DNA of 64,000 nucleotides from Candidatus Tectimicrobiota bacterium (GTDB taxonomy: Bacteria; UBA8248), in assembly GCA_016192135.1 (NCBI GenBank), contig JACPUR010000014.1, positions 10,909 through 74,908 on the forward strand, in the 5' to 3' direction. The translations under genes and the position numbers were made by a program. Below are positions 2,117 through 46,093 of the stretch, one piece after another. The notes under the pieces were generated by a model. It was not told the origin of the DNA. It saw only the letters and a program-made list of their open reading frames with translations, and did no database searches. Each line of letters opens with the position of its first letter. Positions within the stretch are counted from its first letter, which is position 1.

Positions 2117-2254
2117 GGGGGCTCCGGGGGGGCGGGAGTCTCGGACGATTAAATGCTGGCAATCCTTTTGTTAACAAACAGCATTGCTTCACCCTCGCCT
2201 TAAAGGCTATATTTTTATTGGCTATTGAATTTCTCTAAATCAGGGACAAGGGCC

Positions 2255-2428
2255 ATGCCTAAAACAAAAATCTCAACGCCATACCCTTCCTTGGAAGCTG
2301 TCGCCCGCGAACTCGGCGTGGCCAAATCCAGAATCACAAAAATTGTCGACATGGTACGCAAGGTTCAGAAAAATGAGGCAGCCCGCGCTGTCCCTGCGGT
2401 GCGGACGGCCAAAAAAAGAAAAAAGTGA
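2255..2428 (+). CDS. small basic protein with a putative helix-turn-helix (…LEAVARELGVAKSRITKIVDMV…)
   Basis: Short ORF in a low-GC islet. I placed the ATG at 2255 inside the 2225-2428 ORF. It has an HTH-like segment and a Lys/Arg-rich tail, and sits 54 nt upstream of the next ORF on the same strand. Confidence 0.45.
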   Translation: MPKTKISTPYPSLEAVARELGVAKSRITKIVDMVRKVQKNEAARAVPAVRTAKKRKK

Positions 2429-2481
2429 TACCCGTGCTGTCCGTTTCTCTCTAAGGCAAGCCCTGACAGGTATCAACAATC

Positions 2482-3114
2482 ATGCCGCCTAAACGACAAG
2501 GGAAGCGGAAACCTGCGAATACCGTATTCTTAAACATCCCTTACGATAAGCGTTATGAGACTCTGTTCATAGCTTATATCGCCGGCTTGTGTGCATTTGG
2601 CCTAATCCCTCATGCGACACTGGAAATTCCAAGCAGCGACCGGCGGTTGGAGCGAATCTTCAAACTAATTCGCGGTTGCTCTTATTCTCTCCACGATCTC
2701 TCCCGCGTACAGTTGGATCGCAACTCGCCCCCGACACCCCGCTTCAACATGCCATTCGAGCTCGGCCTCGTCGTGGCGTGCGCAAAATTGGAATCGCGGT
2801 CCCATAAATGGTTCGTGTTCGAGGCACGGAGACACCGGCTGAACAAATCGCTGAGCGACCTCGACGGGACCGACCCCCACATTCACAACGGAAGGCCGGA
2901 AGACCTCCTGACTGCCCTGACCAATGTGTTCGTCCGTTCCAAGAATCACCCAACCATCCGGGAGCTTCGCCCCATATTCTCACTCCTAAGGAAAACATCG
3001 CAGATCATCAAAAAGGACAATTCGAATTCCCTGTTCGGAGCTCATGCTTTCCGTGATCTCGTTTTGGCGGCACAAGCCATCGCGCGGGAAAAATTGTCCT
3101 GGCTTAACCACTAA
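2482..3114 (+). CDS. hypothetical protein, possible TIR / nucleoside 2-deoxyribosyltransferase-like Rossmannoid domain
   Basis: 210-aa ORF in a low-GC islet. It has a beta-alpha start (VFLNIPYDKRYETLFIAYIAGL) and an …HDLSR…RFNMPFELGL motif resembling the D-x-G-x-x-F-E-x-G motif of NDT/TIR-like folds. The fold assignment is inferred, not searched. Confidence 0.55.
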   Translation: MPPKRQGKRKPANTVFLNIPYDKRYETLFIAYIAGLCAFGLIPHATLEIPSSDRRLERIFKLIRGCSYSLHDLSRVQLDRNSPPTPRFNMPFELGLVVACAKLESRSHKWFVFEARRHRLNKSLSDLDGTDPHIHNGRPEDLLTALTNVFVRSKNHPTIRELRPIFSLLRKTSQIIKKDNSNSLFGAHAFRDLVLAAQAIAREKLSWLNH

Positions 3115-3133
3115 CATTTCGTTCGTCGTCTTG

Positions 3134-3168
3134 TAAAAAAAGCGGCCCCGCATCCCTGCGGGGCCGCT
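3134..3168 (-). terminator. rho-independent terminator downstream of the Mo-subunit gene (may also stop the convergent + gene)
   Basis: Hairpin AGCGGCCCCGC-atccct-GCGGGGCCGCT (3141-3168), flanked by an A7 run that reads as a T-tract on the minus strand. Confidence 0.7.
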
Positions 3169-3190
3169 TCTGTGTCTGGCTACGAACGTG

Positions 3191-5470
3191 CTACCGCCCC
3201 TTGCCGTTGCCCCCTGCCTTCGAGGCCTTCGGGCTCTTCTTGAGCTTGCCCAGCACCTCGAGCACGTGGTCCGGGGTGATGGGGATGCGGGTGATGCGGG
3301 CGCCGATGGCGTGGCTCACGGCGCAGGCCACGGCGGCGGCCCCCGCCGTGCAGGGGGGCTCCCCGATGCCCTTCGCGCCGTAGGGCCCGAGGCCCTCCTG
3401 CGACTCCTCGATGACGTTCGCCCACTCGGGCGTCTCCACGGCGGTGGGGATGAGGTAGCCGTGGAACTCGTTGTTGGCGATGGCCCCCTTGCGGGTGACG
3501 ATCTCCTCCGAGAGGCCGTGGCCGATGCCCATCATGGTGCCGCCCTCGAACTGCCCCTCCACGTGCTGGACGTTGATGGCCTGGCCCACGTCGTGGCCCG
3601 ACACGTAGCGCAGGAGCCGCACCTCGCCCGTCTCCACGTTCACCTCGACCTCGGCGCCGTGGACGCCGAAGGTGTAGTCCATCCAGCCGCCCGCGTCGCC
3701 GTACTTCTCGTGGCCCTCGAAGCGGTGGTCGCCGATCTTCATCTTGCCGGTGTGGAACATGTCGAGGCCCATGGAGCGGCACTTCTTGACCGCCTGGGCA
3801 ACGGTGACGCCCCTCTCCTCGGCGGATTTGACGAAGATGCGGCCGCCGCGGATGTCGAGATCCTCGGGGCTCACCTCGAGGAGCTCGCCCGCGCCCTTCA
3901 GGAGGCGGCTCCGGAGCTCGAGGCCGGTGCGGTGGGTGGCCCCGCCCGAGATGAGGGTCTGCCGGCTCCCGGCCGTGATGCCCACCAGGGGGGTGACGTG
4001 GGAGTCCGACATCACCACTGTCACCTTCTCCCACGGAATGCCCAGCACCTCGGAGGCGATCTGGCGGTAGGCGTGGGTCTGGCCCGCGCCCACGTCGGAG
4101 GCGCCGACGCGCAGGTTCACGCTGCCGTCGTCCTCGAGGGAGGCGTAGACCTCGCCCTCGTTGCGGGGGCGGCCGTAGCCCCCCATGTTGCCGATGAGGC
4201 TCCGCCCCCGGCGCCAGGGGCCGCGGTCCTTCTCCGGCACCCGGCCCGCCGGCCCGCCCAGGGCGGCGATGGCCTTCTCCAGCAGCTCGGGCAGCATGAC
4301 GCGGCTGGGCAAGGGCTGCTTCTGCATGAGAGTGCCGCCCTTCTTGATGAAGTTGCGGCGGCGGAACTCGACGGGGTCCATGCCGAGGCGCTTCGCCAGC
4401 TCGTCCATCTGGGACTCGTAGGCGAAGCAGACCTGGTTGGCCCCAACCCCGCGCATGGCCTCGGTGAAGGGGTTGTTCGTGAGGACGGCCCGCGCCCGGC
4501 CCCGGGCGTTCGGGATCTCGTAGGGCCCCCCGCTGATGCAGAGCGCCCCCATCACGAGGCCCTTGCTGTTCGAGGCGTAGCCCCCGGCGTCGGCCAGGAT
4601 GTCCACCTCGACCGCCGCGAGCTTGCCGTCCCGGGTGGCCGCCGTCTTGTAGCGCATGAGGAAGGGGTGGCGCTTGCTCCCCGTGTTCACGCTCTCCTCG
4701 CGCGAGTAGGCCATGCGCACGGGCCGGCCCGTCCTCATGGCGAGGAGGGCGAGGAAGGCGCCCAGCAGGGGGTGCTCCTTCCCGCCGAAGGCGCCGCCCA
4801 GCATGGGGCACTCGTAGCGCACCCGGCTGGCCGGGAGGCCGAGGATGGAGGCCACCTTCTGGTAGTTCTCGATGGTCTGGGTGGGCACGCGGACGTTCAC
4901 CACCCCGCGCTCGTCCACCCAGGCCACGCCCCCCTCGGGCTCGATGTAGGCGTGATCGAGGCAGGCCGAGAAGTAGACGTTCTCGACCGTCACCACGTCC
5001 GGCCGGGCGAAGGCGGCGTCCACGTCGCCTTTCTCGGTGTTCCAGTCGCAGATGATCTCGCCCTCGGGCTTCATGAAGTCGTAGGCGCCCGGCAGGGGCT
5101 CGTAGGCGACGTGCACGAGCGAGGCGGCCTCCGCCGCCAGGTCGCGCGACTCGGCCGCCACGATGGCGACGGCGTCCCCGATGTCGCGCACCACGTCCTC
5201 GGCCATGACGGGGTAGTCCGCGTAGCGCCCGGCGTTCACCCCCGGGATGTCCTTGGCCGTCAGGACGCAGTGGACGCCCGGGAGCGCCAGGGCGCGCGAG
5301 GCGTCGATCTTCTTGATCCGGGCCGGGGTCATGGCCGCCCGGACCACCCGGGCGTGGAGCTCGCCGGGGAGGTGGAAATCGTCTCCGTACAAGGTATCCC
5401 CCACCGCCTTGGCGAGGGCGTCCGCCTTGGTGGGCGAGGTTCCGACTACGTTCATTCGGGGCATGCGCAC
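3191..5470 (-). CDS. xanthine dehydrogenase / aldehyde oxidase family molybdopterin-binding subunit
   Basis: 759-aa ORF. N-terminus VGTSPTKADALAKAVGDTLYGDD…ARVVRAAMTPARIKKID…ALPGVHCVLTAKDIPG and the C-terminal GAKGIGEPP motif are typical of the CoxL/XdhB-type large subunit. Confidence 0.9.
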   Translation of the reverse strand: MRMPRMNVVGTSPTKADALAKAVGDTLYGDDFHLPGELHARVVRAAMTPARIKKIDASRALALPGVHCVLTAKDIPGVNAGRYADYPVMAEDVVRDIGDAVAIVAAESRDLAAEAASLVHVAYEPLPGAYDFMKPEGEIICDWNTEKGDVDAAFARPDVVTVENVYFSACLDHAYIEPEGGVAWVDERGVVNVRVPTQTIENYQKVASILGLPASRVRYECPMLGGAFGGKEHPLLGAFLALLAMRTGRPVRMAYSREESVNTGSKRHPFLMRYKTAATRDGKLAAVEVDILADAGGYASNSKGLVMGALCISGGPYEIPNARGRARAVLTNNPFTEAMRGVGANQVCFAYESQMDELAKRLGMDPVEFRRRNFIKKGGTLMQKQPLPSRVMLPELLEKAIAALGGPAGRVPEKDRGPWRRGRSLIGNMGGYGRPRNEGEVYASLEDDGSVNLRVGASDVGAGQTHAYRQIASEVLGIPWEKVTVVMSDSHVTPLVGITAGSRQTLISGGATHRTGLELRSRLLKGAGELLEVSPEDLDIRGGRIFVKSAEERGVTVAQAVKKCRSMGLDMFHTGKMKIGDHRFEGHEKYGDAGGWMDYTFGVHGAEVEVNVETGEVRLLRYVSGHDVGQAINVQHVEGQFEGGTMMGIGHGLSEEIVTRKGAIANNEFHGYLIPTAVETPEWANVIEESQEGLGPYGAKGIGEPPCTAGAAAVACAVSHAIGARITRIPITPDHVLEVLGKLKKSPKASKAGGNGKGR

Positions 5471-11690: not shown

Positions 11691-12140
11691 ATGCCCGCCT
11701 CCCCGGCCGGCATCCACCTCCGGCTCACGCGGACCTTCGAGGCGCCGCGCGAAAAAGTCTTCCGCGCCTGGACCGACCCGGAGGCGCTGAAGCGCTGGTG
11801 GGGACCCGCCGACTTCGACTGCATCGAGGCCCAGAGCGACCCGCGCCCGGGGGGCCGCTACCGCATCACCGTCCGGGAGAGGGAGAAGGGCGAGGTCTAC
11901 ACCGTCCTCGGCGAGTACCGGGAGGTCGAGCCCCCCGCCCGCCTTGTCTACACCTGGCGCTGGGGGCACTGGGACGCGGCCGCGGAGGAGAGCCTCGTCA
12001 CCGTCGAGTTTCACGCGCGGGGCGCCTCCACCGAGCTCACCCTCGTCCACGAGCGCTTCCCGGACGAGGGCACGCGCGACCAGCACAGCCAGGGCTGGGC
12101 GAGCACCCTCGGCTGCCTGGCGGAATACCTGGGCGGATGA
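11691..12140 (+). CDS. SRPBCC (AHSA1/START-like) domain protein
   Basis: LTRTFEAPREKVFRAWTDPEALKRWWGP… signature. Confidence 0.85.
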   Translation: MPASPAGIHLRLTRTFEAPREKVFRAWTDPEALKRWWGPADFDCIEAQSDPRPGGRYRITVREREKGEVYTVLGEYREVEPPARLVYTWRWGHWDAAAEESLVTVEFHARGASTELTLVHERFPDEGTRDQHSQGWASTLGCLAEYLGG

Positions 12141-12179
12141 CCTCGGGCCGGACATGACGCCGACCCCCAGAGGAGGAGC

Positions 12180-12644
12180 TTGATCGTGCCCGCTCTCCCG
12201 GCCCGCGCCCTCCACACCCTGCGCCTCGTCCGCACCTTCGAGGCGCCGCGCGAGAGGGTCTTCCGCGCCTGGACCGACCCCGAGGCGCTGAAGGAGTGGT
12301 ACGGGCCGGACGGGTGGTCCACCCCCAGCGCGGAGGTGGACCTCCGGGCGGGAGGCGGCTACCGGATCACCATGAAGGGCCCGGAAGGCGAGGAGATCCG
12401 CCTGAGCGGGACCTTCCGGGAGGTCCGGCCGCCGGAGCGGCTCGTCTACACCTGGAATTGGGAGAAATTCCACCTCGACCTCGGCGGCTTGGGGGAAACG
12501 CTGGTCACGGTTGAATTTCACGAGCGGGGCGGCGCCACGGAGCTGATCCTCACGCACGAGCGGTTCCCCCGCGCCGAAACCCGCGATCTGCACGGGGGGG
12601 GCTGGGCGAGCACCCTCGATTGCCTGGCGGAATACCTGGGCTGA
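12180..12644 (+). CDS. SRPBCC (AHSA1-like) domain protein, paralog 2
   Basis: LVRTFEAPRERVFRAWTDPEALKEWYGP… Non-ATG start (TTG 12180 or GTG 12186) after GAGGAGG. Confidence 0.8.
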   Translation: MIVPALPARALHTLRLVRTFEAPRERVFRAWTDPEALKEWYGPDGWSTPSAEVDLRAGGGYRITMKGPEGEEIRLSGTFREVRPPERLVYTWNWEKFHLDLGGLGETLVTVEFHERGGATELILTHERFPRAETRDLHGGGWASTLDCLAEYLG

Positions 12645-12670
12645 GCCTTCCACGGGAAAGGAGTCTCCGC

Positions 12671-13108
12671 ATGATCGATCGCCGCTTCCTCACCATCGCG
12701 CTGGGCTACGTCGCGGTCACCTTCGTCCTCGCCGTCCTCTGGCACCTGGTGCTGTTCAAGGGCGTCTACGACGCGCTCGGCTACGTGGGGCGCAAGGAGC
12801 CGATCTTCGCCCTGGGCCTCCTCTCCATGGTGGTGCAGGGGGCGGCGCTGGGCGGGCTCTTCCCGCGCTTCGCGCGGGGCGGGGACCCCTACCGGGAGGG
12901 GCTCCGCTTCAGCCTGGCGATGGGGGCCTTCTTCTGGAGCTGCCACGTCCTCGCGGCGGCGGCGAAGAACCCCATCTCCCCGATCCCGACCTTCGTGGCC
13001 ATCGAGACGGCCTATCTCCTGATCCAGTTCACCCTGGCGGGCCTGATCATCGGGTGGGCCCACCGGCCCGGCACGGCCCCCGCCGCGCGCTTCGCCGCCA
13101 AGGCGTGA
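12671..13108 (+). CDS. small integral membrane protein
   Basis: About 145 aa with 4 hydrophobic segments. ATG 12671 follows AAGGAG. Embedded between SRPBCC paralogs. Confidence 0.6.
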   Translation: MIDRRFLTIALGYVAVTFVLAVLWHLVLFKGVYDALGYVGRKEPIFALGLLSMVVQGAALGGLFPRFARGGDPYREGLRFSLAMGAFFWSCHVLAAAAKNPISPIPTFVAIETAYLLIQFTLAGLIIGWAHRPGTAPAARFAAKA

Positions 13109-13133
13109 GAGACTCGAAAAAAAAGGAGGCCCC

Positions 13134-13583
13134 ATGTCCATCCCCCAGACCCAGCCCCTCCACACCCTGCGCCTCACCCGCGTCTTCAACGCCCCCCGCG
13201 AGCGGGTCTGGCGCGCCTGGACCGACCCGGAGCAGATAAAGCACTGGTGGGGGCCCAAGGGCTTCACCGCCCCCAGCATCGAGATGGACCTCCGGCCGGG
13301 CGGCCGCTACCGAATCGCCATGCGCCCGCCCGAGGGGGAAATTTTTCACCTGAACGGGGTCTTCCAGGAGGTCCTCCCGCCCGAGCGGCTGGTCTACACC
13401 TTCCAGTGGGAGAAGCCCGGCTGGGACTACCCCGAGACCCTGGTGACGGCCGAGTTCCGGGACCTGGGCGGCCGGACCGAGCTCGTCCTCATCCACGAGC
13501 GGTTCCCCGAGGAGAAGATGCGGAACGATCACGAGGGCGGCTGGACGGGCACCCTCGACCGCCTGGCGGAGCTGCTGGGCTGA
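13134..13583 (+). CDS. SRPBCC (AHSA1-like) domain protein, paralog 3
   Basis: LTRVFNAPRERVWRAWTDPEQIKHWWGP…. Confidence 0.85.
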   Translation: MSIPQTQPLHTLRLTRVFNAPRERVWRAWTDPEQIKHWWGPKGFTAPSIEMDLRPGGRYRIAMRPPEGEIFHLNGVFQEVLPPERLVYTFQWEKPGWDYPETLVTAEFRDLGGRTELVLIHERFPEEKMRNDHEGGWTGTLDRLAELLG

Positions 13584-13603: not shown

Positions 13604-13747
13604 GTAGGGGCAGGCCCCTCCGCCCCGCGCGACACGTCGCGCGGGGGCCCCAAATTCGACGCCTGCCCCGGGCGGCCATGGCCGGTCGCCCCTGCGGACG
13701 TACACGGCCCCGGTTTCCGTAGGGGCGTATGGCAATACGCCCCTGCC
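13604..13747. repeat. cluster of family-A palindromic (REP-like) units
   Basis: GTAGGGGCAGGCCCCTCCGCCCC…, GGCGGCCATGGCCGGTCGCCCCTGCGG and GTAGGGGCGTATGGCAATACGCCCCTGC. Confidence 0.6.
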
Positions 13748-15257: not shown

Positions 15258-15737
15258 GTGACATTGCAAGCTTATATGTTGCCCGGCCTTGCGAGCCTCT
15301 TGCACCTGGAGGGTGAAGGCATCAGCAGGCTTGCCGAGCAATACAGGGAAGGATTGGAAGCCGGACATGGCGTGCGCCAAGTGGCTTGGCGCGTTCAAAA
15401 TGGAATCGCGAAGGCGCTCGTCGCGCATCGGATGGCGCTGGAACTGGAAGAAGACGTCCATGGTGCCGTCAATGAGTACCCGAAAGACCAATGGCTCGAA
15501 ATGAAAGGTGAAATGGACGGCGTTATCGCGCTGGTCTGCCAGAACGAGAAGGAACTAATCCGAACGGCCGAAGAAATTTCCAAAAGGGGGCAAAAGGTCG
15601 CAGGCTTGGAGGAGCTGAAGAAAAGGCACGCGGAACTGATTCATCAGATGAACTGGGATTACACATCCGAGGCGTTCCAGAAAATCATCCGACAAGCGGA
15701 GGAAGACGCCAAGGCGGGACACGTCTTGGAAGATTGA
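15258..15737 (+). CDS. hypothetical helical protein, candidate (atypical) antitoxin
   Basis: 159-aa ORF in a low-GC islet with a GTG start after GGAGGG. Its stop overlaps the ATG of the downstream RelE/ParE-like gene (TGATG). Confidence 0.45.
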   Translation: MTLQAYMLPGLASLLHLEGEGISRLAEQYREGLEAGHGVRQVAWRVQNGIAKALVAHRMALELEEDVHGAVNEYPKDQWLEMKGEMDGVIALVCQNEKELIRTAEEISKRGQKVAGLEELKKRHAELIHQMNWDYTSEAFQKIIRQAEEDAKAGHVLED

Positions 15738-16036
15738 TGCGCTCAATCCGCTCGCGCAGATATAAAGCATTCCTGGACAGGTTGCCCGCAAGAATTCAGA
15801 AGGCCGCCTCAGAAAAATTTAAAATCTTCACAGAAAATCCCTTCGACAGCCGGCTGGATCGCAAACCGATTGAACAGCTCAAACATCTGGGAACGTATAT
15901 TGAGGTGGAAATAACGGGAAGAAGATACCGTGCGGTGGCCCGCGTCACCAAGGAAAACAACGAGGATGTGTACTATTGGATTTTCATAGGCACACATTCG
16001 GATTTCGACAGGTTTGCGCAAACCTATTCTGGCTAG
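15737..16036 (+). CDS. RelE/ParE superfamily toxin-like protein
   Basis: About 99 aa. …FKIFTENPFDSRLDRKPI…YRAVARVTKENNEDVYYWIFIGTHSDFDRF matches the RelE/HigB-type C-terminal pattern (yR…W.GTH.eYD). Confidence 0.6.
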   Translation: MRSIRSRRYKAFLDRLPARIQKAASEKFKIFTENPFDSRLDRKPIEQLKHLGTYIEVEITGRRYRAVARVTKENNEDVYYWIFIGTHSDFDRFAQTYSG

Positions 16037-16114: not shown

Positions 16115-17884
16115 ATGGCCTTCCGCCACCGCCTGCCCGACGGACGCGAGTACATCTGCCACAGGCCCCAGGTCGCGGGCCGCCGCGCCATGGTGGCCTC
16201 GGGCCACCATCTCGCCACCCAGGCCGGGCTCAGGGTCCTCGACCGGGGCGGCAACGCCGTGGACGCGGGTGTGGCGGCGGGGCTGTGCATGAGCGTGCTG
16301 CTGACCGACATGATCTCCTTCCTGGGGGTGGCCCCCATCATCCTCTACCTGGCGAAGGAGCGCCGCGTCGTGACCATCAGCGGCCTGGGGCGCTGGCCCC
16401 GGGCGGTTTCCATCCAATGGTTCCGGGAGAAGTGGGGGGGCGAGATCCCGCCCGGCGTCGCCCGCTGCTTGGTGCCCGCGGCGGCGGACGCCTGGCTCAC
16501 GGCGCTGGAAAAATACGGGACCATGCGCTTCGCGGACGTGGCGGCGGACGCCATCGAGCTGGCGGGCCGGGGCTTCCCCATGCACCACTTCATGCACGAG
16601 CACATCGCCGGGGCGCGGGAGAATTATCACCGCTTCCCGGAGAACCGCCCCGTCTACTTCCCGGACGGCGATCTCGTGCCGGTGGGGGCGCCCGTCCTGC
16701 ACCGCGACCTGGCCGGGACCTACGAGCGCATGGCGCGGGCGGAGGCGAAGGCCTCCTCGCGCCCGGCCGGGGTCCGCGCCGCCCGGGACGAGATCTACAA
16801 GGGGGAGACGGCGCGCCGCATCGTGGACTTCATCCAGAAGAACGGGGGCGCCATGACGCTGGAGGACCTGGCCGGGTTCCACGTGGGGGAGGAGCCGCCC
16901 GTGGTCTCGTCCTACAAGGGGCACGAAATCCACGCCTGCGGCCCCTGGTGCCAGGGGCTCACACTCCCCCAGGCACTCAACCTCCTGGAGCGGGTGGACC
17001 TCCGGGCGCTGGGCCACAACCGCCCGGCCAGCCTCCACGCGCTCTTCTCCGCCTTCGACCTCACCTTCGCCGACCGCCACGCCTTCCTCGGGGACCCCGA
17101 GTTCGTGGAGGTGCCGGCGGAGGGCCTCCTCTCCAAGGGCTACGCCGCCGAGCGGGCGAAGCTCATGGAGCGGGCGGAGGCCTTCGGGGGGATGCCCCCG
17201 GCGGGGGACCCCTGGGCCTTCCAGAAGGGCCAGAAGGGGAACGGGCGGCGGGCCGCTGACTTCAACTTAAAAGAGACGGCGGGGGCGGGCGCCTTCGAGC
17301 AGGACACCTCCTTCTGCACCGCCGTGGACGCCGAGGGCAACGCCTTCGCCGCCACCCCCTCGGACGGGAGCGGGGACGTGCCCATCTTCCCGGGCGTGGG
17401 GGCCTCGGTCTCGGGGCGGGGCTCCCAGAGCTGGCTGGACGAGGCGCACCCGAGCTCGGTCCAGCCCTGGAAGCGCCCCCGCCTCACCCCCGCCCCGGCC
17501 CTCGTCCTGAAAGACGGAGAGTTCTACATGACCCTCGGCACCCCGGGCGGGGACGTGCAGCCCCAGGCCATGGCCCAGGTCTTCCTCAACATCGCCGAGT
17601 TCGGGATGGCCCCCCAGATGGCGGTCGAGGCCCCCCGCGGCGCCACCTTCAACTTCCCCAACTCCTTCTGGCCCCACGAGTACAAGCCGGGCCGGGCCGT
17701 GGTGGAGCAGAGCATCGAGCGCGAGGCCGGGGCGGAGCTCCGGGAGCGGGGCTACAAGCTCGACACGTGGCCCGACTTCGGCTGGCGCCCCGGGAGCGTC
17801 TGCTGCATCCTCCGCGACCCCAAGACGGGATTCTTGCTGGGCGGGGCGGACCCCAGAAGGGAATCGTACGCGGCGGGGTGGTAG
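16115..17884 (+). CDS. gamma-glutamyltransferase family protein
   Basis: 589 aa with MVASGHHLATQAGLRVLDRGGNAVDAGVAAG…, an autoprocessing-type Thr region (QDTSFCTAVD) and a C-terminal GGADPRRESYAAGW. Confidence 0.9.
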   Translation: MAFRHRLPDGREYICHRPQVAGRRAMVASGHHLATQAGLRVLDRGGNAVDAGVAAGLCMSVLLTDMISFLGVAPIILYLAKERRVVTISGLGRWPRAVSIQWFREKWGGEIPPGVARCLVPAAADAWLTALEKYGTMRFADVAADAIELAGRGFPMHHFMHEHIAGARENYHRFPENRPVYFPDGDLVPVGAPVLHRDLAGTYERMARAEAKASSRPAGVRAARDEIYKGETARRIVDFIQKNGGAMTLEDLAGFHVGEEPPVVSSYKGHEIHACGPWCQGLTLPQALNLLERVDLRALGHNRPASLHALFSAFDLTFADRHAFLGDPEFVEVPAEGLLSKGYAAERAKLMERAEAFGGMPPAGDPWAFQKGQKGNGRRAADFNLKETAGAGAFEQDTSFCTAVDAEGNAFAATPSDGSGDVPIFPGVGASVSGRGSQSWLDEAHPSSVQPWKRPRLTPAPALVLKDGEFYMTLGTPGGDVQPQAMAQVFLNIAEFGMAPQMAVEAPRGATFNFPNSFWPHEYKPGRAVVEQSIEREAGAELRERGYKLDTWPDFGWRPGSVCCILRDPKTGFLLGGADPRRESYAAGW

Positions 17885-17989
17885 GGGGGGAGATTATCGA
17901 AAGCACAAAGAAAAGGCTGGCCTTCAAAGTATTTAAAATCAGTAGGTTATAGTTTCAAGTGGAAGTTTTTTTGCACAACGCATATAGTA

Positions 17990-18254
17990 TCTTTGACAGG
18001 TGGAGAGGCACGCGGTTATCCGCGTACTGTCAGCCATGCGATCCATTAGGATCGCGCTTCCGGAGGGAAGCTAGAGGGATTGAACGTTGCCCGAACTTGT
18101 TCGTCCCGTCGCAGAGGATGAACGAGAGGGCTATCTCTCGACACCCTGCTAGCCAGGGAAGGAACTGTACGGGATAGATGGGGTCCCAAGGCAGTTCCGT
18201 GGCCAATGCCTCTCATACGGGGAAGCGACCCTCATCCTCTCGCTTCCCTTTTTT
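17990..18254 (+). ncRNA. unclassified structured RNA ending in an intrinsic terminator
   Basis: Closing helix GAGAGGCA (18003-18010) / TGCCTCTC (18207-18214) encloses six perfect hairpins at 18010-18025, 18038-18055, 18056-18071, 18123-18140, 18144-18158 and 18161-18198. It is followed by the terminator GGGAAGCGA-11nt-TCGCTTCCC-T6 (18220-18254). The 5' end is not determined. Confidence 0.45.
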
Positions 18255-18766
18255 CTTTCTTTACACTCGCCACCACTCACACATTTCTTTCCTTCTAATT
18301 TCTTTTCTACTTTTTTGTCACCCATGAAAATGTGGGTCATTAGCGATAACGAACCGTGAATCCGATCAGCAATTGCGATGTACCTTGTTCCCGGCGAAGG
18401 CTTCCACGGACTTATGTATATAAAAGAATGACGTTTTCCTCTTTCCCTGTAAATTTCGATGGGCCTTTCCAGGGAAGGCTTTAACAACGTGAGGCACTTC
18501 ATTTTAAGGATGTTGAATTGATGGCCTCCGGCTTTTGCATCCGAAACCAAGAGATGTCCGAACCTACGCTCGTGAATTAAAATAACCCTTCCAAGTGGAT
18601 CCCGAATCACAACAGGCTTCCCATCCTTAGCCGCTATTAAATTTTCCACGAACCACTTCTGGGCTGATTTGACCTTGAAGGTATGTATTATTTCATCCAG
18701 CAATTGTGGCGATGGCCTAGTTTCAAGGGCCTTCAGCTTCACGATTGATTTCTTCATTTGCCCCAT
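18149..18766 (-). CDS. hypothetical protein, possibly a Barnase/EndoU/RelE-like (PBECR-type) nuclease
   Basis: Low-GC ORF. …RVILIHERRFGHLL…LTLLKPSLERPIEIYRERGKRHSFIYISPW…YIAIADRI… resembles phage PBECR nuclease domains (weak, by eye). The last roughly 35 codons are antisense to the ncRNA 3' end. Confidence 0.45.
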   Translation of the reverse strand: MGQMKKSIVKLKALETRPSPQLLDEIIHTFKVKSAQKWFVENLIAAKDGKPVVIRDPLGRVILIHERRFGHLLVSDAKAGGHQFNILKMKCLTLLKPSLERPIEIYRERGKRHSFIYISPWKPSPGTRYIAIADRIHGSLSLMTHIFMGDKKVEKKLEGKKCVSGGECKERKKGSERMRVASPYERHWPRNCLGTPSIPYSSFPG

Positions 18767-18949
18767 AGCCGGATTTGTTCGCCACCGGAGATATACCAGC
18801 AAGGCTTTTCAAGGCCATTGGCATGCCCAAGCCAGCGCAAACCTATGAAATTTCCCCATTCGATGGCTTCATTGGGAAATTCATTTCACCATAGTGGGAT
18901 AGTGACCCCGGTGCAGGGCCGAAAGGCTGTCACACTTTTGGTTCTCCCC

Positions 18950-20353
18950 CTACCCCTCCCTCGCCCCCTCGGGCATCTTGAACGGCCTCGCGCGCTCGAA
19001 GGCGCGGGCGGCGCGCAGGACGAGGGCGTCCCGGTGCATGGGGCCCACGATCTGGAGCCCGGCGGGGAGGCCCTTCGAGGTGAAGCCGCAGGGGACGGAG
19101 CAGGCGGGCTGGCCGGTGAGGTTGAAGGGGTAGGTGAAGGGGGTCCACTTCACCCAGCGGCCGGGCTCGCCCTCCCCGGGCGCCTCCCGGCCCGCCTCGA
19201 AGGCGGGGATGGGGAGCATGGGGGTCAAGAGCAGGTCCCAGCCCTGGTGGAAGAGCTTCATCTTGCGCCCGAGGGCCGCGCGCTCGGGGACCGAGGCCCG
19301 CACGTAGTCCTCGAGGCGGATGCCGGACCCCATGCGCGCCGCCTCGATGAGGCCGGGGTCCATGAGGGCGTGCTTCTCCCGGGGGATGCCCCCGACGAGG
19401 GTGGCCGCGGCGGCGAAGTAGATGGTCCAGAAGATGCGCTCGGCATCGCCCAGCCCCGGGTCGGCCTCCTCGACCCGGGCGCCCAATTCCTCGAAGGCCC
19501 AGGCGGCCGAGGCCACTCTCTCAGCCACCTCAGCGTCCACCTCCGCCCCGCCCAGCGAGGGGCTGAAGGCGACCCTGAGCCCCGAGACTCCATCCTCCAG
19601 GCCCTCGCGGTAGTCCCGCGCCTCATAGGGGAGGGCGAACCAGTCCCGCGCGTCCGGCCGGGCGAGGGCGTTGAGCATCAGCGCCGCGTCCTCCACGGTG
19701 CGGGTCATGGGGCCCGCGTGGGCGAGGGTGTGGTTGGGGTTGGGGGGATGGGTGGGGACGCGACCGAAGCTGGGCTTGAAGCCGAAGACCCCGGTGAAGC
19801 CCGCCGGGATGCGGATGGAGCCCCCGGCGTCGGTGCCGAGGTGGAGTGCCCCCATCCCCAGGGCGCAGGCCGCGGCGGCCCCCCCGCTGCTCCCGCCCGG
19901 GGTCATGCGGGTGTCCCAGGGGTTGCGGGTGACGCCGGTGAGGGGGGAGTCCGTCACCCCCTTCCAGCCGAGCTCGGGGGTGGTGGTCTTCCCGAGGAGG
20001 ACGGCCCCGCCCTCGCGCAGGCGGGCGGTGGGAGGCGCGTCCTCCCCGGCCGGCGCCTCGTCCGCCGTCTTGCTCCCGCGCCGGGTGGGCCAGCCCCGGG
20101 CGAGCACCAGGTCCTTGATGGTGGCGGGCACCCCGTCCAGGGGCCCGAGGGGCTCCCCGCGCCGCCACCTTTCTTCCGAGGCGCGGGCCGAGGCGAGCGC
20201 CCCCTCTTCGTCCACCAGGCAGAAGGCGTTGACCGCCCCGTCCCAGGCCCGGATGCGATCCAGCGCCGCGCGCGCCGCCTCGACGGGGGAGGCCTTGCCC
20301 GCCCGGTAGAGGGCGGTCAGCTCCCTCACCGGGAGGCGGTAGAGGTCGGTCAT
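18950..20353 (-). CDS. amidase (amidase-signature family)
   Basis: GVPATIKDL…GGSSGGAAAACA signature. Start trimmed to MTDLYRLPVRELT (20353); the upstream part of the ORF is REP-derived. Confidence 0.85.
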   Translation of the reverse strand: MTDLYRLPVRELTALYRAGKASPVEAARAALDRIRAWDGAVNAFCLVDEEGALASARASEERWRRGEPLGPLDGVPATIKDLVLARGWPTRRGSKTADEAPAGEDAPPTARLREGGAVLLGKTTTPELGWKGVTDSPLTGVTRNPWDTRMTPGGSSGGAAAACALGMGALHLGTDAGGSIRIPAGFTGVFGFKPSFGRVPTHPPNPNHTLAHAGPMTRTVEDAALMLNALARPDARDWFALPYEARDYREGLEDGVSGLRVAFSPSLGGAEVDAEVAERVASAAWAFEELGARVEEADPGLGDAERIFWTIYFAAAATLVGGIPREKHALMDPGLIEAARMGSGIRLEDYVRASVPERAALGRKMKLFHQGWDLLLTPMLPIPAFEAGREAPGEGEPGRWVKWTPFTYPFNLTGQPACSVPCGFTSKGLPAGLQIVGPMHRDALVLRAARAFERARPFKMPEGAREG

Positions 20354-20440
20354 GGCCCTGCCCTCCCCGGCGAGGGGGAAACCGCCTGTCACCCATGTGC
20401 CCGGTCTATTCTGGACCCTCACCCTGCGGCGCGTTTTTCC

Positions 20441-20468
20441 GTAGGGGCGAGGCATGCCTCGCCCCTAC
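20441..20468. repeat. family-A REP-like palindrome GTAGGGGCGAGGCATGCCTCGCCCCTAC
   Basis: Perfect 28-nt palindrome, identical to the copy at 23773-23800. Confidence 0.75.
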
Positions 20469-20528
20469 GGACAATTCCGACGGGCTGCGCCCCGGCCGGG
20501 CGGTTCCGGCGTTCGAATGTTCCCCCGC

Positions 20529-23728: not shown

Positions 23729-23772
23729 GTCGGCGTCTCCCGCCTCGTCGGCAAGGGTTGTCATGCCCTTTT

Positions 23773-23800
23773 GTAGGGGCGAGGCATGCCTCGCCCCTAC
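23773..23800. repeat. family-A REP-like palindrome (identical copy)
   Basis: GTAGGGGCGAGGCATGCCTCGCCCCTAC. Confidence 0.75.
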
Positions 23801-23831
23801 GGATTGGAATCGTGGGGCTGTTTCCTCGCCC

Positions 23832-24608: not shown

Positions 24609-24947
24609 TCGACGAAAAAGCCCGGGCGAACACGAGGTTCGCCCCTACAGATCAGGCAGTCCGTAGGGGCGATGCTTGTCATCGCCCTCCGTGACGCGGC
24701 GCCGGCCGGTCCGCAGGGGCGTATTGCCATGCGCCCCTACAGGGCATCCACGCGCCGCGGGTTCCGTAGGGGCGGCCCCCCGTGGCCGCCCCTCACACGG
24801 GGCAGGCACGGGGGCCTGCCCCTACAGGAAATTTTCGCCGGTGACGAAACCGCCGAGGGCGAACACGAGGTTCGCCCCTACAGAATTTGGTGCGTTTCCG
24901 CAGGGGCGTATTGCCATGCGCCCCTACGTTCCCATCCGCCCACCCCC
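24609..24947. repeat. dense array of at least 7 family-A REP-like palindromes filling a whole intergenic region
   Basis: Units of the form (GTA)GGGGC-[variable palindromic core]-GCCCCTAC, for example GGGGCGTATTGCCATGCGCCCCTAC (x2), GCGAACACGAGGTTCGCCCCTACAG (x2) and GTAGGGGCGGCCCCCCGTGGCCGCCCCTC. Confidence 0.7.
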
Positions 24948-25349: not shown

Positions 25350-25532
25350 GGGTGCCTCCTGGCAGCGGAATCCAATGTTGTTCAGCGTCCAACGATAAAT
25401 CCGGGGGCACAGCGCATCCGCGCCCTCCCTCTCCCTTTGGGAGAGGGTTTACGACCCGACGGAGAAGCAGGGGGCGAGGCATGCCTTGCCCCTACGGATG
25501 GGGGCGCGAATCCGGGAAAAAGGAACCGCCCC

Positions 25533-33472: not shown

Positions 33473-35050
33473 ATGATGCATATTCTCGCCGCTGCCCTCG
33501 CAGTTCTCGCCCTCGCCCTTGGACCCGCGGCCGGCGCCCAGGCCGCGAAGCGGGGCGGCACCCTCCGGATCGCGACCGAGGGAGAAGCGTTCGATCTCAA
33601 CCCCATCGGGATCAGCGGCGCCCTGAAGGTCTACCGGGAGATCATGGGCGGCGCCCTTCTCCGCCTCGACGAGAACTTCAACCCCATCGGCGACCTGGCG
33701 AAGAGCTGGGAGATCTCCGACGAAGGGCGCATCGTCACCTTCAAGCTCCACCCCGGGGGCACCTACCACGACGGCGCCCCGCTCGACGCCGAATCGGTCA
33801 AGTGGAACCTCGACCTCGTCAACAAGACGGTCCCGAAGTGGGTCGAGGAGATGAAGAAAAAGAACCCCAAGTACAAGTGGCAAAATCTCTTCGTCAACTA
33901 TCTCTACCACATCGACAAGGTGGAGGTGGTGGACAAGTACACCCTCCGCGTCCACCAGAAGGACCTGGGTAAGGGCCAGCTCTTCGACGCCATGACGGGC
34001 ACCCTGGGACGCTTCGTCCTCGTCTCGCCCAAGGCCTACGACACCGACATCGAGTCCTTCCGCCGCCGCCCCGTCCTGAGCGGCCCCTACAAGTTCGTGG
34101 AGTGGAAGCGCAACCAGCACCTCTTCGCCGAGCGCCACAGGGGCTTCTACCGCAAGGGCCAGCCCTACCTCGACCGGCTCGAGTTCTACTTCATCCCCGA
34201 CGCGAACCAGCGGATGAACGCCCTCCTCTCGGGCCAGATCGACGTCATCAACAACCTGCCCCTCTCCCTCTACGAGACGATGAAGAAGGCGCCCGGCGTC
34301 GTCGTCCACCGGGGGCGGGCCACCATCAACTACGCCTTCCCCTTCAACAACCAGATGGAGCCCTGGAAGGACCTCCGGGTGCGCAAGGCCGTCTCCTGCT
34401 ACGCCGTGGACCGGGCCCAGATCGTGAAGACCGCCCTGCGGGGGCTCGGCAAGCCCTGGGTGACCTTCGCGCCCGGCGGGGCCGTGGACGCGCTCGACCT
34501 CACGGCCGAGTGCCCCTACGACCCCGAGAAGGCCAAGAAGCTCCTGGCCGAGGCGGGCTACGGCCCGGGCAAGCCCCTCAAGATCACCATGACGACCAAC
34601 AACTCCGACCCGGCCCACATCGAGGTGTCCCAGGCGCTCAAGCTCCAGTTCGCCAAGAGCAACATCGACATGGAAGTCAAGATCGTGGACTACGCCACCT
34701 GGAACCGCGGCTTCGTGGGCCAGCACAAGATCCAGCTCACGCTCCAGAACACGCTCTCCTCCCGCAGCGTGAACAGCAACTCCCACGTCGTCTACTCGAA
34801 GGCGGGGAACGACTACTACCAAGTCAAGGACCCCAAGCTGGACGAGCTGCTGGACGCCTGGCGCTCGACCATCGACCCGCGCAAGCAGCTCGAGGCCAGC
34901 CACGCGATCCAGCGCTACGTCCTGGACCAGGCGTATTACCCCAACCTCGCCACCTTCTCGTTCCTGGAGGTCACGCGGGACTACGTGAAGGGATTCAAGT
35001 ACCTGGGCAAGCTGATGTTCGACTACAGCGAGGTCTGGCTGGACAAATAG
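33473..35050 (+). CDS. ABC substrate-binding protein family 5, tandem paralog 1
   Basis: Signal peptide MMHILAAALAVLALALGPAAGAQAAKRGGTLRI and an SBP_bac_5 body. Confidence 0.9.
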   Translation: MMHILAAALAVLALALGPAAGAQAAKRGGTLRIATEGEAFDLNPIGISGALKVYREIMGGALLRLDENFNPIGDLAKSWEISDEGRIVTFKLHPGGTYHDGAPLDAESVKWNLDLVNKTVPKWVEEMKKKNPKYKWQNLFVNYLYHIDKVEVVDKYTLRVHQKDLGKGQLFDAMTGTLGRFVLVSPKAYDTDIESFRRRPVLSGPYKFVEWKRNQHLFAERHRGFYRKGQPYLDRLEFYFIPDANQRMNALLSGQIDVINNLPLSLYETMKKAPGVVVHRGRATINYAFPFNNQMEPWKDLRVRKAVSCYAVDRAQIVKTALRGLGKPWVTFAPGGAVDALDLTAECPYDPEKAKKLLAEAGYGPGKPLKITMTTNNSDPAHIEVSQALKLQFAKSNIDMEVKIVDYATWNRGFVGQHKIQLTLQNTLSSRSVNSNSHVVYSKAGNDYYQVKDPKLDELLDAWRSTIDPRKQLEASHAIQRYVLDQAYYPNLATFSFLEVTRDYVKGFKYLGKLMFDYSEVWLDK

Positions 35051-35090
35051 CCGCCTGAACCGCGGCGCGCACCGGAAGGATGGAGCCGAC

Positions 35091-36668: not shown

Positions 36669-36803
36669 GAGCCTTTTTGAGAAAAATGACCATTCGAAAA
36701 GCGGCCATCATCCGGCCGGCGGCCGCCCCGCGGCGCCGGGCGCACCGCGATCCTGACGCTGGATCCTGACAATGCAGGCCCAAACCATGGGAGGCACACC
36801 ATC

Positions 36804-43456: not shown

Positions 43457-43532
43457 GGGCGAGGCATGCCTCGCCCAGATCAGGCGGCATGGCAGGGTTT
43501 GGTTGTAGGGGCGGTTCGCGAACCGCCCCTGC
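43453..43532. repeat. two family-A REP-like units
   Basis: GTAGGGGCGAGGCATGCCTCGCCC and GTAGGGGCGGTTCGCGAACCGCCCCTGC (the latter recurs at 61284-61311). Confidence 0.65.
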
Positions 43533-44788: not shown

Positions 44789-44829
44789 AACTCCGAGCGA
44801 CGCAAAACGGCCCGGTTTTTCGGCCCTTT

Positions 44830-45576: not shown

Positions 45577-45621
45577 TGTAATCTCCTACGATGGGCGTTA
45601 AAAAACGGACTGTATAATTAG

Positions 45622-45699
45622 CTTAGGGCAAATAGAAAATTGAAGAAATCCCCCTCCCTCTTGCGGGCGCTGGAGCGGGAACTGGGGAGGCCGCAATGA
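45622..45699 (+). pseudogene. possible 3' remnant of a toxin-like partner gene truncated by the low-GC insertion
   Basis: A short open frame ending …SLLRALERELGRPQ* whose TGA overlaps the ATG of the HTH gene (ATGA). The GC-rich part begins abruptly at about 45648. This is inference only. Confidence 0.25.
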
Positions 45700-46058: not shown

Positions 46059-46093
46059 CAGTGATTGGTTGGTCTGCCTACCGGATGGAAGGT

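What the first reader, a model, noticed from the sequence alone, without database searches (positions are those of the whole stretch)
17960..18802. Low-GC islet with a highly structured unclassified ncRNA converging on and overlapping an orphan nuclease-like gene
Seen: between the GGT gene and an amidase gene lies a roughly 1-kb low-GC islet. Its + strand has no credible ORF but folds, by hand, into a closed multi-hairpin structure. An 8-bp closing helix (18003-18010 / 18207-18214) encloses six perfect 5-7 bp hairpins. A textbook intrinsic terminator follows immediately (9-bp stem, T6, 18220-18254). The terminator and the last roughly 100 nt of the RNA lie inside the 3' end of the convergent minus-strand ORF 18149-18766, so the two transcripts must be complementary there. 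That ORF has an …IHERRFGHLL…LLKPSLERPIEIY…FIYISPW… pattern that reminds me of phage Barnase/EndoU/RelE-like (PBECR) nucleases. Inference: this may be a horizontally acquired RNA-protein pair, for example an antisense-controlled toxin or an RNA-guided or RNA-regulated conflict module, rather than a housekeeping RNA. I could not match the RNA to RNase P, tmRNA, SRP or 6S.
Basis: partly seen in the sequence, partly recalled or inferred. Interest (0 to 1): 0.7.

Follow-up and report, generated by a model that had tools for sequence, protein, structure and literature searches.

The report
Rare RNase gene paired with structured RNA
A 1-kb foreign islet carries a predicted toxin-like RNase gene facing a new, highly structured 255-nt RNA gene; the two always occur together in the few known relatives, so they probably form a new RNA-controlled toxin module.

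Summary
Window 17885-18949 is a low-GC islet (0.45-0.51 against 0.72) between the stop codons of a GGT gene and an amidase gene. Its + strand carries an RNA gene of about 255 nt (17995-18254) that folds far better than shuffles (z = -6.3) and matches no Rfam family. The minus-strand ORF belongs to the PBECR2 (BECR-fold RNase) family and keeps the His/Thr pair expected of an active site.

The protein family is tiny: six members in an exhaustive search of 1.84 billion cluster representatives. All five other loci carry the same RNA, convergent and abutting the RNase gene. Six sequences give 22 of 61 base pairs with compensatory changes, against 4-5 in slid controls, and a covarying pseudoknot. 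No protein partner is conserved.

A 1-nt frameshift in an A-run removed the ancestral stop (TAA, 18262-18264); in the relatives the stop sits at the terminator's T-tract.

Best reading: a mobile two-gene toxin-antitoxin or abortive-infection-like cassette in which the RNA restrains the RNase, most likely by direct binding. Antisense control is the main rival. Function is inferred, not shown.

The parts
17885..18949 (.). Low-GC islet that fills the whole gap between the convergent GGT stop (17884) and amidase stop (18950).
   Evidence: GC is 0.45-0.51 against 0.72 in the flanks. ORFs and Pfam matches for the flanking genes. In relatives L003 and L005 the module has the GC of its surroundings, so here it is foreign.
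17983..17988 (+). Putative -10 box TATAGT of the RNA gene. The inferred transcription start is at G17995 or A17996.
   Evidence: Read from the sequence. The same position in L003 has TTGATT-N17-TATATT. L005 and L006 have TTGCAA-N17-CACAAT, read from alignment A2. This part is inferred; no transcript data exist.
17995..18254 (+). Structured non-coding RNA gene of about 255-260 nt. It has a pseudoknot, eight helices and an intrinsic terminator.
   Evidence: MFE z = -6.3. It is conserved in 6 of 6 loci. Covariation: 22 of 61 pairs changed on both sides, 0 of 500 shuffles as good, slid controls 4-5. G-U pairs number 32 against 8 A-C, which fixes the strand. No Rfam match. No conserved reading frame.
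17995..18031 (+). Pseudoknot helix: GACAG 17995-17999 pairs with CUGUC 18027-18031, crossing helix P1.
   Evidence: Five of its 6 pairs show changes on both sides. The sequence is GCAG/CUGC in most loci, GACAG/CUGUC in the window and GUGGC/GCCAC in L135.
18003..18214 (+). Closing helix P1 (18003-18009 with 18208-18214) and inner closing helix P3 (18033-18037 with 18199-18203). They enclose hairpins P4-P8.
   Evidence: P1 is 100% paired in 6 sequences, with one covarying pair. P3 is 97% paired.
18100..18116 (+). Conserved motif UUCGUCCCGUCGCAGAG (consensus AUCGUCCCGNCGCAGAG) inside helix P6. The local pairing around it differs between loci.
   Evidence: Alignments A2 and A9. It is a candidate recognition or cleavage site; that role is inferred.
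18219..18254 (+). Intrinsic terminator: GGGGAAGCGA, an 11-nt loop, UCGCUUCCCU, then U6. Its sequence is nearly invariant across all six loci.
18149..18766 (-). ORF of 205 aa as it stands: a PBECR2-like predicted RNase with a frameshifted C-terminal tail that is probably adventitious.
   Evidence: PF18810 at E = 1.1e-5 and 26.0 bits, against a cut-off of 27.1. All 6 family members match PF18810. Residues 158-205 have pLDDT of about 30. Relatives are 152-167 aa long.
18290..18652 (-). PBECR2 domain (residues 39-159). The invariant His71 codon is 18554-18556 and the invariant Thr144 codon is 18335-18337.
   Evidence: The expected His and Thr/Ser configuration is described in PMC5512222.
18295..18307 (-). 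A-rich run where a 1-nt loss shifts the reading frame.
   Evidence: Adding one A gives the tail ...VEKKIRRKEMCEWWRV*, which matches the P0002 tail VEKIRREGKFEWERDK*.
18262..18264 (-). Ancestral-frame stop codon TAA, 8 nt beyond the RNA's T-tract.
   Evidence: In the relatives the TAA directly abuts the A-run, read.

Best explanation
The islet is a horizontally acquired two-gene cassette. One gene encodes a small, very basic RNase of the BECR fold (PBECR2-like), which acts as a toxin or effector. The other is a convergently transcribed, independently promoted and terminated RNA of about 255 nt. This RNA folds into a compact multi-helix, pseudoknotted structure and is the RNase's dedicated partner. 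The most likely mechanism is that the folded RNA binds the RNase and keeps it inactive, i.e. an RNA antitoxin that works like type III although it is not built like one. If RNA synthesis falls, for example after loss of the element or transcription shut-off during phage infection, the RNase is freed and cleaves cellular or invader RNA. Antisense pairing with the read-through 3' UTR of the RNase mRNA may add a second layer of control. Shown here: the RNA's structure, its conservation, its strict co-occurrence with the protein, the protein's family and the absence of a protein partner. Inferred: toxicity, binding and release.
For: **Co-occurrence**
- An exhaustive HMMER search of 1.84 billion representatives found only three true relatives of the window's protein. 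Profile searches added two more.
- All five other loci carry the RNA immediately 3' of the gene on the opposite strand (CM scores 150-222 bits).

**The RNA is under selection for structure and sequence**
- 91% of cells are paired, and 22 of 61 pairs changed on both sides. No shuffle of 500 reached this, and slid controls gave 4-5.
- The RNA is the best-conserved DNA in the module. blastn between lineages aligns the RNA and at most a short stretch of adjoining ORF.
- The 3' half is 61-77% identical between lineages and the terminator is nearly invariant. The proteins are only 36-48% identical.
- A cis-antisense RNA is complementary to its target whatever its sequence. This degree of constraint therefore points to a conserved binding partner.

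**The protein looks like an active RNA-binding RNase**
- All six members hit PF18810.
- His71 and Thr144 are invariant, matching the PBECR active-site description in PMC5512222.
- pI is 10.0-10.7.
- The AF2 core (pLDDT 70-81) finds phage polyvalent and MuF-C proteins in BFVD at E = 1.6e-4 to 1e-2.

**No conserved protein antitoxin**
- The ORFs called over the RNA in L003 and L005 are unrelated to each other.
- The 5' flanks are not conserved.
- In the window the cassette fills the whole intergenic gap.

**Mobile, conflict-type contexts**
- In the window it is a foreign low-GC islet.
- In L003 it sits next to a Fic/Panacea toxin-antitoxin pair, between IS1-like transposase copies.
- In L005 it sits with an integrase, a ParA gene and an MT-A70 methylase gene.
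Against: - There are no expression, toxicity or binding data.
- Only six sequences from about three or four lineages exist, so the covariation statistics are good but shallow.
- The window protein scores 26.0 bits, just under Pfam's 27.1 cut-off. Foldseek against the PDB found nothing significant, with a model of mean pLDDT 60.
- The RNA has none of the hallmarks of known type III antitoxins: no tandem repeats, it is not upstream of the toxin, and it is not on the same strand.
- The convergent geometry with abutting 3' ends is the classic type I (antisense) layout.
- The window copy has a frameshifted C-terminus and may be decaying.
Confidence: 0.45

Rival explanations
1. Type I-like antisense control. 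The RNase mRNA has no terminator of its own, so it reads through the RNA gene. The abundant RNA pairs with this complementary 3' UTR, RNase III then degrades the duplex or the mRNA is remodelled, and toxin synthesis is repressed. The RNA's structure would serve only stability and pairing kinetics.
For: - The genes are convergent and their 3' ends abut at a shared hairpin in all six loci. This is the layout of par (RNA I/RNA II), txpA/RatA and bsrG/SR4 (PMC4147584; PMC3834814 and PMC3531473).
- Read in the RNase direction, the hairpin has no U-tract after it (read), so read-through is plausible.
- No other terminator was found on that strand in L003 or L005.
Against: - Eight helices and a pseudoknot maintained by compensatory changes, plus strong primary-sequence conservation, are more than cis-antisense pairing needs.
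- Known 3'-overlap type I toxins are small hydrophobic peptides. This one is a basic RNase of 150-168 aa.
- Cognate RNA/translation-initiation-region duplexes are no better than shuffles.
- The coding overlap in the window is a frameshift artefact.
Confidence: 0.25
2. The two form a functional ribonucleoprotein rather than a toxin-antitoxin pair. The RNA would be the RNase's cofactor, scaffold, guide or sensor. Alternatively it would be its dedicated substrate, with the protein acting as a processing or maturation enzyme or a chaperone. The complex, or the processed RNA, would be the active agent in defence or in element maintenance.
For: - The pair co-occurs strictly.
- The RNA has a large, conserved, tertiary-looking fold with conserved unpaired motifs: AUCGUCCCGNCGCAGAG and the P8 loop AGGUGAG.
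- The terminator hairpin is invariant and could be a protein handle.
- Iyer et al. note RNA-binding, non-catalytic uses of PBECR domains (PMC5512222).
Against: - No variable 'guide' segment is apparent. The variable parts are helices that covary, not single-stranded spacers.
- The catalytic-type His and Thr are retained, which fits a toxin better than a chaperone.
- No other effector gene is conserved in the cassette.
Confidence: 0.2
3. The adjacency is fortuitous or only structural. The RNA would be an independent mobile or regulatory RNA, or a 3' UTR/terminator element of the RNase mRNA, and would not be a functional partner.
For: The sample is small, and three of the six loci (L005-L007) are close relatives.
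Against: - The same arrangement is seen in lineages whose proteins are only 36-48% identical and whose flanks are unrelated.
- The RNA lies on the opposite strand, as shown by a 32:8 excess of G-U over A-C pairs, a conserved T-tract terminator and promoter-like boxes.
- The RNA was not found away from the RNase gene in any collection searched.
Confidence: 0.05
4. The region opposite the RNA encodes a protein. The ORFs called there in L003 and L005, or the window's C-terminal extension, would be real, and the apparent RNA structure would be a by-product.
For: Gene callers placed ORFs of 183-189 aa over the region in L003 and L005. The window ORF extends across it.
Against: - Those ORFs share no similarity.
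- Reading frames are interrupted or shifted between loci on both strands.
- The window tail has pLDDT of about 30 and comes from a frameshift.
- Base-pair covariation is strong.
Confidence: 0.03

Closest known systems
PBECR2 (Pfam PF18810): phage Barnase/EndoU/ColicinE5-D/RelE-like nuclease 2 (Iyer et al. 2017, PMC5512222)
   Same: All six proteins match the profile. They keep an invariant His in a predicted helix and a Thr in the last strand. The predicted core resembles phage polyvalent and MuF-C proteins.
   Different: The described members are domains of phage polyvalent or MuF proteins, or solo phage genes. No RNA partner has been reported for them. This clade is a solo protein of about 155 aa in small mobile cassettes on chromosomal, IS-flanked and plasmid-like DNA. 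It was not found in the phage or plasmid collections searched.
Type III toxin-antitoxin systems (ToxIN, CptIN, TenpIN)
   Same: An endoRNase toxin is paired with a non-coding RNA and there is no protein antitoxin. Both are small mobile cassettes linked to defence. RNA-protein binding is the likely mode of inhibition.
   Different: Type III antitoxins are tandem repeats of about 36 nt, encoded upstream of the toxin on the same strand and processed by it. Here the RNA is a single, non-repetitive, pseudoknotted 255-nt fold encoded convergently. The toxin fold is BECR rather than ToxN-like.
Type I toxin-antitoxin systems with convergent 3' ends (par RNA I/RNA II of pAD1, txpA/RatA, bsrG/SR4)
   Same: Toxin gene and RNA gene are convergent and meet at a shared terminator hairpin just beyond the toxin's stop codon. 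The RNA length (180-260 nt) is similar.
   Different: Those toxins are hydrophobic peptides of under 60 aa. Their antitoxins act by base pairing and are not known for an eight-helix covarying fold. The toxin here is a basic RNase of 150-168 aa.
Large structured orphan RNAs linked to mobile-element nuclease genes (for example HEARO/omega RNA with IscB, and the IS605-orfB RNA)
   Same: A large, covarying structured RNA is genetically tied to a nuclease gene in mobile DNA.
   Different: Those RNAs are in Rfam and did not match. They lie on the same strand as their nuclease gene and guide DNA cleavage. No RuvC/HNH or transposase partner is part of this cassette.

Membership tests
PBECR2 (PF18810) | The sequence matches the family profile at or above Pfam's gathering score. 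| tested here: inconclusive
   The window protein scores 26.0 bits (E = 1.1e-5) against a cut-off of 27.1, covering profile positions 2-115 of 120. All 6 clade members match, with a best E of 1.8e-7.
PBECR2 (PF18810) | Active-site configuration: His in the N-terminal core helix and Thr/Ser near the C-terminus (PMC5512222). | tested here: met
   His71 (in RFGHLL, predicted helix 66-73) and Thr144 (predicted strand 139-149) are invariant in 6 of 6 sequences.
PBECR2 (PF18810) | BECR fold: a helix followed by a 4-5-stranded sheet. | tested here: inconclusive
   The AF2 model has a helix at 66-73, then helices and four strands at 104-149, with pLDDT 70-81 in the core and a mean of 60. The top BFVD hits are polyvalent, MuF-C and 'nuclease' phage proteins at E = 1.6e-4 to 1e-2, but with TM of about 0.4. 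No significant PDB hit.
PBECR2 (PF18810) | Endoribonuclease activity. | not testable with these tools
   This needs an in vitro cleavage assay, with and without H71A and T144A mutations.
Type III toxin-antitoxin | The RNA antitoxin is made of tandem direct repeats. | tested here: not met
   The repeat search of 17800-19050 found no tandem or direct repeats within the RNA. The fold is a single multi-helix domain.
Type III toxin-antitoxin | The antitoxin is encoded upstream of the toxin on the same strand, separated from it by a terminator. | tested here: not met
   The RNA lies downstream of the RNase gene on the opposite strand in 6 of 6 loci.
Type III toxin-antitoxin | The RNA binds the toxin protein directly and inhibits it. 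| not testable with these tools
   This is inferred only from conservation patterns. It needs co-expression rescue, EMSA or co-purification.
Type I toxin-antitoxin (3'-overlap class) | Toxin mRNA and antisense RNA are convergent and their 3' ends overlap. | tested here: inconclusive
   The gene geometry fits: the stop codon lies at or within 8 nt of the RNA's T-tract. Transcript ends are unknown. The coding overlap in the window is a frameshift artefact.
Type I toxin-antitoxin (3'-overlap class) | The toxin is a small hydrophobic membrane peptide. | tested here: not met
   The proteins are 152-168 aa, have pI 10.0-10.7 and carry a PBECR2 domain.
Any Rfam 15 family (RNase P, tmRNA, SRP, 6S, HEARO, ROOL, GOLLD, retron msr, and others) | A covariance-model match. 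| tested here: not met
   Nothing reached gathering score in the window. Only noise at E >= 0.6 fell in 17850-19000. Nothing lay over the RNA in L006, L007 or L135.

The most novel reading that the evidence does not exclude
The RNA is more than a passive antidote. It would form a defined ribonucleoprotein with the BECR RNase and gate or direct its activity, as an RNA sensor or cofactor whose fold or integrity is monitored. That would define a new class of RNA-dependent RNase conflict system. At the least, it would be a new toxin-antitoxin type in which a single non-repetitive, pseudoknotted RNA of about 255 nt neutralises a BECR toxin.
Probability: 0.2. Interest if true: 0.85.

Novelty: new variant of a known kind. 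Interest (0 to 1): 0.62.

Why it matters
BECR-fold RNases are among the commonest toxins in bacterial conflict systems. As far as the literature searched here shows, their antidotes are proteins: immunity proteins or type II antitoxins. A BECR RNase whose only conserved partner is a large folded RNA would add a new way of controlling this toxin superfamily.

It would also add a new structured RNA class, with eight helices and a pseudoknot, that is absent from Rfam. And it would be the first genomic-context clue to what solo PBECR2 domains do.

The cassette is under 1 kb and self-contained, so it is directly testable in a laboratory strain. If the RNA is a specific, tight inhibitor or cofactor, the pair could become a compact RNA-controlled RNase tool. 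Its extreme rarity, six loci in about 15 billion predicted proteins, limits its ecological importance.

Tried and rejected
- **Rfam.** cmscan at gathering score and at E <= 10 on the window, and at E <= 1 on three relatives, found no family.
- **tRNA/tmRNA.** ARAGORN found none in the islet.
- **More RNA copies by exact-pattern scans.** The terminator pattern gave 0 hits in metagenome and viral contigs and one hit in genomes (L008, Mesorhizobium). That hit has no T-tract and no core RNA, and the covariance model did not hit it. The core pattern gave more than 120 metagenome hits and 6 viral hits; none matched the nhmmer profile, so all are chance. A third pattern gave 0 viral hits.
- **More protein relatives.** One k-mer search, two profile searches, a genome-contig scan, a viral-contig scan, and tblastn against annotated phages and plasmids found nothing beyond the six. 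blastn of the RNA against phages and plasmids found nothing.
- **Foldseek against the PDB.** No significant hit. A profile search against PDB sequences gave only a spurious local match to a carotenoid oxygenase.
- **PADLOC and PHROGs.** No meaningful hit for the RNase.
- **A protein gene opposite the RNA.** Rejected.
- **Trans-antisense pairing with the RNase's translation-initiation region.** Cognate duplex energies are no better than shuffles, though the test is crude. The 5' regions are not conserved.
- **Riboswitch or leader.** Rejected, because nothing lies downstream in the sense direction except the antisense of the RNase gene.
- **Retron, omega RNA or bridge RNA.** No RT, TnpB/IscB or IS110 gene is part of the conserved cassette.
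- **Full-length covariance model including the terminator.** A 205-position core model was used instead.
Full report
**1. The observation**

The window is about 70-72% GC, but 17885-18949 drops to 0.45-0.51. The islet exactly fills the gap between two convergent host genes:
- a gamma-glutamyltranspeptidase gene, 16115-17884 on the + strand (PF01019, E = 7e-96);
- an amidase gene, 18950-20455 on the - strand (PF01425, E = 8e-95).

The + strand 17995-18256 folds to -125.8 kcal/mol. Dinucleotide shuffles give -93.6 ± 5.1, so z = -6.3 and none of 200 shuffles does as well. The reverse complement folds less well, at z = -4.75.

The terminator is real: a 10-bp stem at 18219-18228/18240-18249, an 11-nt loop, and T6 at 18249-18254. 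The consensus scan missed it only because it allows loops of 3-8 nt.

No Rfam family matches at gathering score or at E <= 10, and there is no tRNA or tmRNA here.

**2. The protein**

ORF 18149-18766(-) matches Pfam PF18810 (PBECR2) at E = 1.1e-5 and 26.0 bits, over residues 39-159 and nearly the whole profile. That is just below the 27.1-bit cut-off.

The family is extremely small.
- A k-mer search of 5.8 billion clusters found only the protein itself.
- An exhaustive phmmer search of 1.84 billion representatives found three real relatives, P0002 to P0004, of 152-167 aa.
- Profile searches added P0006 and the fragment P0007.

All six members hit PF18810.

His71 and Thr144 are invariant. They lie in a predicted helix and in the last strand. 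This is the His plus Thr/Ser configuration that Iyer et al. give for active PBECR domains (PMC5512222).

The proteins are very basic, with pI 10.0-10.7.

An AlphaFold model built from the six-sequence alignment is of moderate quality: mean pLDDT 60, core 70-81. Its best matches in BFVD are phage polyvalent, MuF-C, 'minor capsid' and 'nuclease' proteins (E = 1.6e-4 to 1e-2, TM about 0.4). These are the known homes of PBECR domains. The PDB search gave nothing significant.

**3. The overlap is window-specific**

All relatives end 15-20 residues after a conserved VEK motif. The window protein continues for 45 more residues, and that tail is modelled as disordered, with pLDDT about 30.

Translating the other frames shows why. 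One extra A in the A-rich run at 18295-18307 would give ...VEKKIRRKEMCEWWRV*, ending at TAA 18262-18264. This closely parallels the tail of P0002, VEKIRREGKFEWERDK*.

In the five relatives the TAA directly abuts the A-run that is the reverse complement of the RNA's T-tract. So the conserved design is two convergent genes meeting at one hairpin. The 100-nt coding overlap is not part of it.

Two independent SRA assemblies carry the window's exact sequence. The frameshift may therefore be real, but a homopolymer error cannot be excluded.

**4. The RNA is real and always accompanies the protein**

The contigs encoding the relatives were fetched. nhmmer with the window's RNA found a match in every one, immediately 3' of the RNase gene and on the opposite strand, at E = 1e-18 to 1e-25. 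L135 was then read directly and scored 150 bits with the covariance model.

RNAalifold on five sequences gave 64 pairs, 18 of them with compensatory changes.

A 205-position covariance model (R1) aligned the six sequences. On that alignment my hand-specified structure, which includes a 5' pseudoknot, scores as follows:

| Measure | Structure as given | Controls |
|---|---|---|
| Cells forming a standard pair | 91% | 35-51% (slid partners) |
| Pairs changed on both sides | 22 of 61 | 4-5 (slid partners); 0 of 500 shuffles reach 22 |

Five of the six pseudoknot pairs covary. The helix is GCAG/CUGC in most loci, GACAG/CUGUC in the window and GUGGC/GCCAC in L135.

Several points fix the strand as the + strand of the window:
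- G-U pairs outnumber A-C by 32 to 8.
- The T-tract terminator is conserved.
- Promoter-like boxes lie at the right distance. L003 has TTGATT-N17-TATATT, L005 and L006 have TTGCAA-N17-CACAAT, and the window has TATAGT at 17983-17988.

No reading frame is conserved on either strand.

Only six sequences from about three or four lineages exist, because L005, L006 and L007 are 82-88% identical to each other. The statistics are therefore strong but shallow.

**5. What is conserved**

Between lineages, blastn aligns the RNA and at most a short stretch of adjoining ORF.
- The RNA's 3' half is 61-77% identical between lineages. Its 5' half is 51-60% identical and is maintained mainly by covariation.
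- The proteins are 36-48% identical.
- The terminator hairpin (GGGGAAGCGA...CCUCUCGCUUCCC) is nearly invariant in all six loci.
- An unpaired motif, AUCGUCCCGNCGCAGAG, is conserved inside P6 although the local pairing around it differs between loci.

I cannot explain these last two features. They look like recognition elements.

**6. No other partner, and a mobile context**

The 5' flanks are unrelated between lineages. The ORFs that gene callers placed over the RNA in L003 and L005 share no similarity. In the window there is no room for another gene.

The contexts are mobile or conflict-related.
- L003 has IS1-like DDE transposase copies on both sides (PF03400, 38.6 bits) and a Fic/Panacea toxin-antitoxin pair next door.
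- L005 has a tyrosine integrase gene, a ParA gene and an MT-A70 methylase gene.
- In L003 and L005 the module's GC matches its surroundings. In the window, and less markedly in L135, it is lower than the flanking DNA.

**7. Mechanism**

These facts are established:
- a self-contained cassette of about 0.9 kb;
- a predicted active BECR RNase;
- a dedicated, independently transcribed RNA under selection for both fold and sequence;
- no protein antidote.

The most economical reading is a toxin-antitoxin or abortive-infection-type module with an RNA antitoxin.

I favour direct RNA-protein inhibition, i.e. type III-like in logic (0.45). A cis-encoded antisense RNA is complementary to its target whatever its sequence. 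An eight-helix, pseudoknotted, sequence-constrained fold therefore implies a conserved ligand, and the only conserved candidate in the cassette is the basic RNase.

Antisense (type I-like) control is the main rival and may act as well (0.25). The geometry matches par, txpA/RatA and bsrG/SR4 (PMC4147584). The RNase mRNA also has no obvious terminator of its own.

A functional RNP, with the RNA as cofactor, sensor or substrate, remains possible (0.2).

A crude duplex test found no special complementarity between each RNA and its cognate translation-initiation region.

**8. Comparison and novelty**

The protein is a member, or a near-threshold relative, of PBECR2. The RNA belongs to no described family.

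The module fails the defining features of type III systems, which need a repeat-array antitoxin encoded upstream on the same strand. It also fails those of classical type I systems, whose toxins are small hydrophobic peptides.

Full-text searches found no report of a PBECR or BECR toxin with an RNA partner.

I therefore rate it a new variant of a known kind: an RNA-controlled toxin module. There is a minority chance that it is something more unusual.

Its rarity tempers its general importance. It has six loci in all, none from the collections of annotated phages, plasmids or species-representative genomes that were searched.

Noticed in passing
window 15258-16036: A second low-GC islet (GC about 0.52-0.55) holds two overlapping ORFs of 159 aa and 100 aa. 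The second is weakly RelE/HigB-like: Pfam HigB_toxin at E = 0.0037, PADLOC PD-Lambda-2_A at E = 1.3e-4, and the PHROG RelE-like toxin family at E = 0.053. It is probably an acquired type II toxin-antitoxin pair.
   Followed up: partly
window 2038-3213: A third low-GC islet (GC 0.54) holds a 210-aa ORF at 2482-3114(+). It has no Pfam match.
   Followed up: partly
window 44721-46301: A fourth low-GC islet (GC 0.49) holds an orphan 248-aa ORF at 44830-45576(-), which has no Pfam match. Next to it is an HTH_37/Xre-type regulator at 45696-46058(+), E = 5e-24. The islet abuts tRNA-Thr at 46226-46301 and looks like an insertion at a tRNA gene.
   Followed up: partly
window 63453-63967 and 62934-63404: Another low-GC stretch lies at the window's end, beside an HTH_3 (Xre-family) regulator ORF. 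It is cut off by the window boundary.
   Followed up: no
window 20438-20471, 23770-23803, 24660-24691, 25465-25498, 43450-43483, 51945-51976; also 13716-13746, 24710-24740, 24897-24927, 43503-43530, 61286-61313: REP-like GC-rich palindromes of the form GTAGGGGCG-N-CGCCCCTAC occur in several sub-families, scattered between genes.
   Followed up: no
window 17870-17891 and 18943-18964: An imperfect 22-nt inverted repeat (77% complementary) brackets the islet and partly lies inside the 3' coding ends of the GGT and amidase genes. It could mark an insertion into a former terminator or REP hairpin, or it could be chance between G-runs and C-runs.
   Followed up: partly
window 33487-38253: There are three tandem paralogous units of about 1.6-1.7 kb, 70-85% identical to each other. 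This looks like a triplicated gene.
   Followed up: no
window 54723-58408 and 11717-13583: Internal direct repeats are spaced about 500-520 nt apart. They suggest tandem domain or gene duplications.
   Followed up: no
L003 271-1787 and 4226-5758: Two copies of a gene pair, about 141-144 aa plus about 268 aa. The larger protein is an IS1-family DDE transposase (PF03400, 38.6 bits). The copies flank the RNase-RNA module and a Fic/SocA-Panacea toxin-antitoxin pair, in a composite-transposon-like arrangement.
   Followed up: partly
L006 129-195: A sub-threshold Rfam match to CyVA-1 RNA (28.4 bits against a gathering score of 41.4, E = 0.002) lies outside the module.
   Followed up: no
window 18064-18077 and 18236-18249: A 14-nt stretch spanning P5 3' and P6 5' (AGGGAAGCUAGAGG) is 93% complementary to the 3' half of the terminator. 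This gives a possible antiterminator-like alternative pairing in the window and in L135, but the pairing is not conserved in the L005 group.
   Followed up: partly
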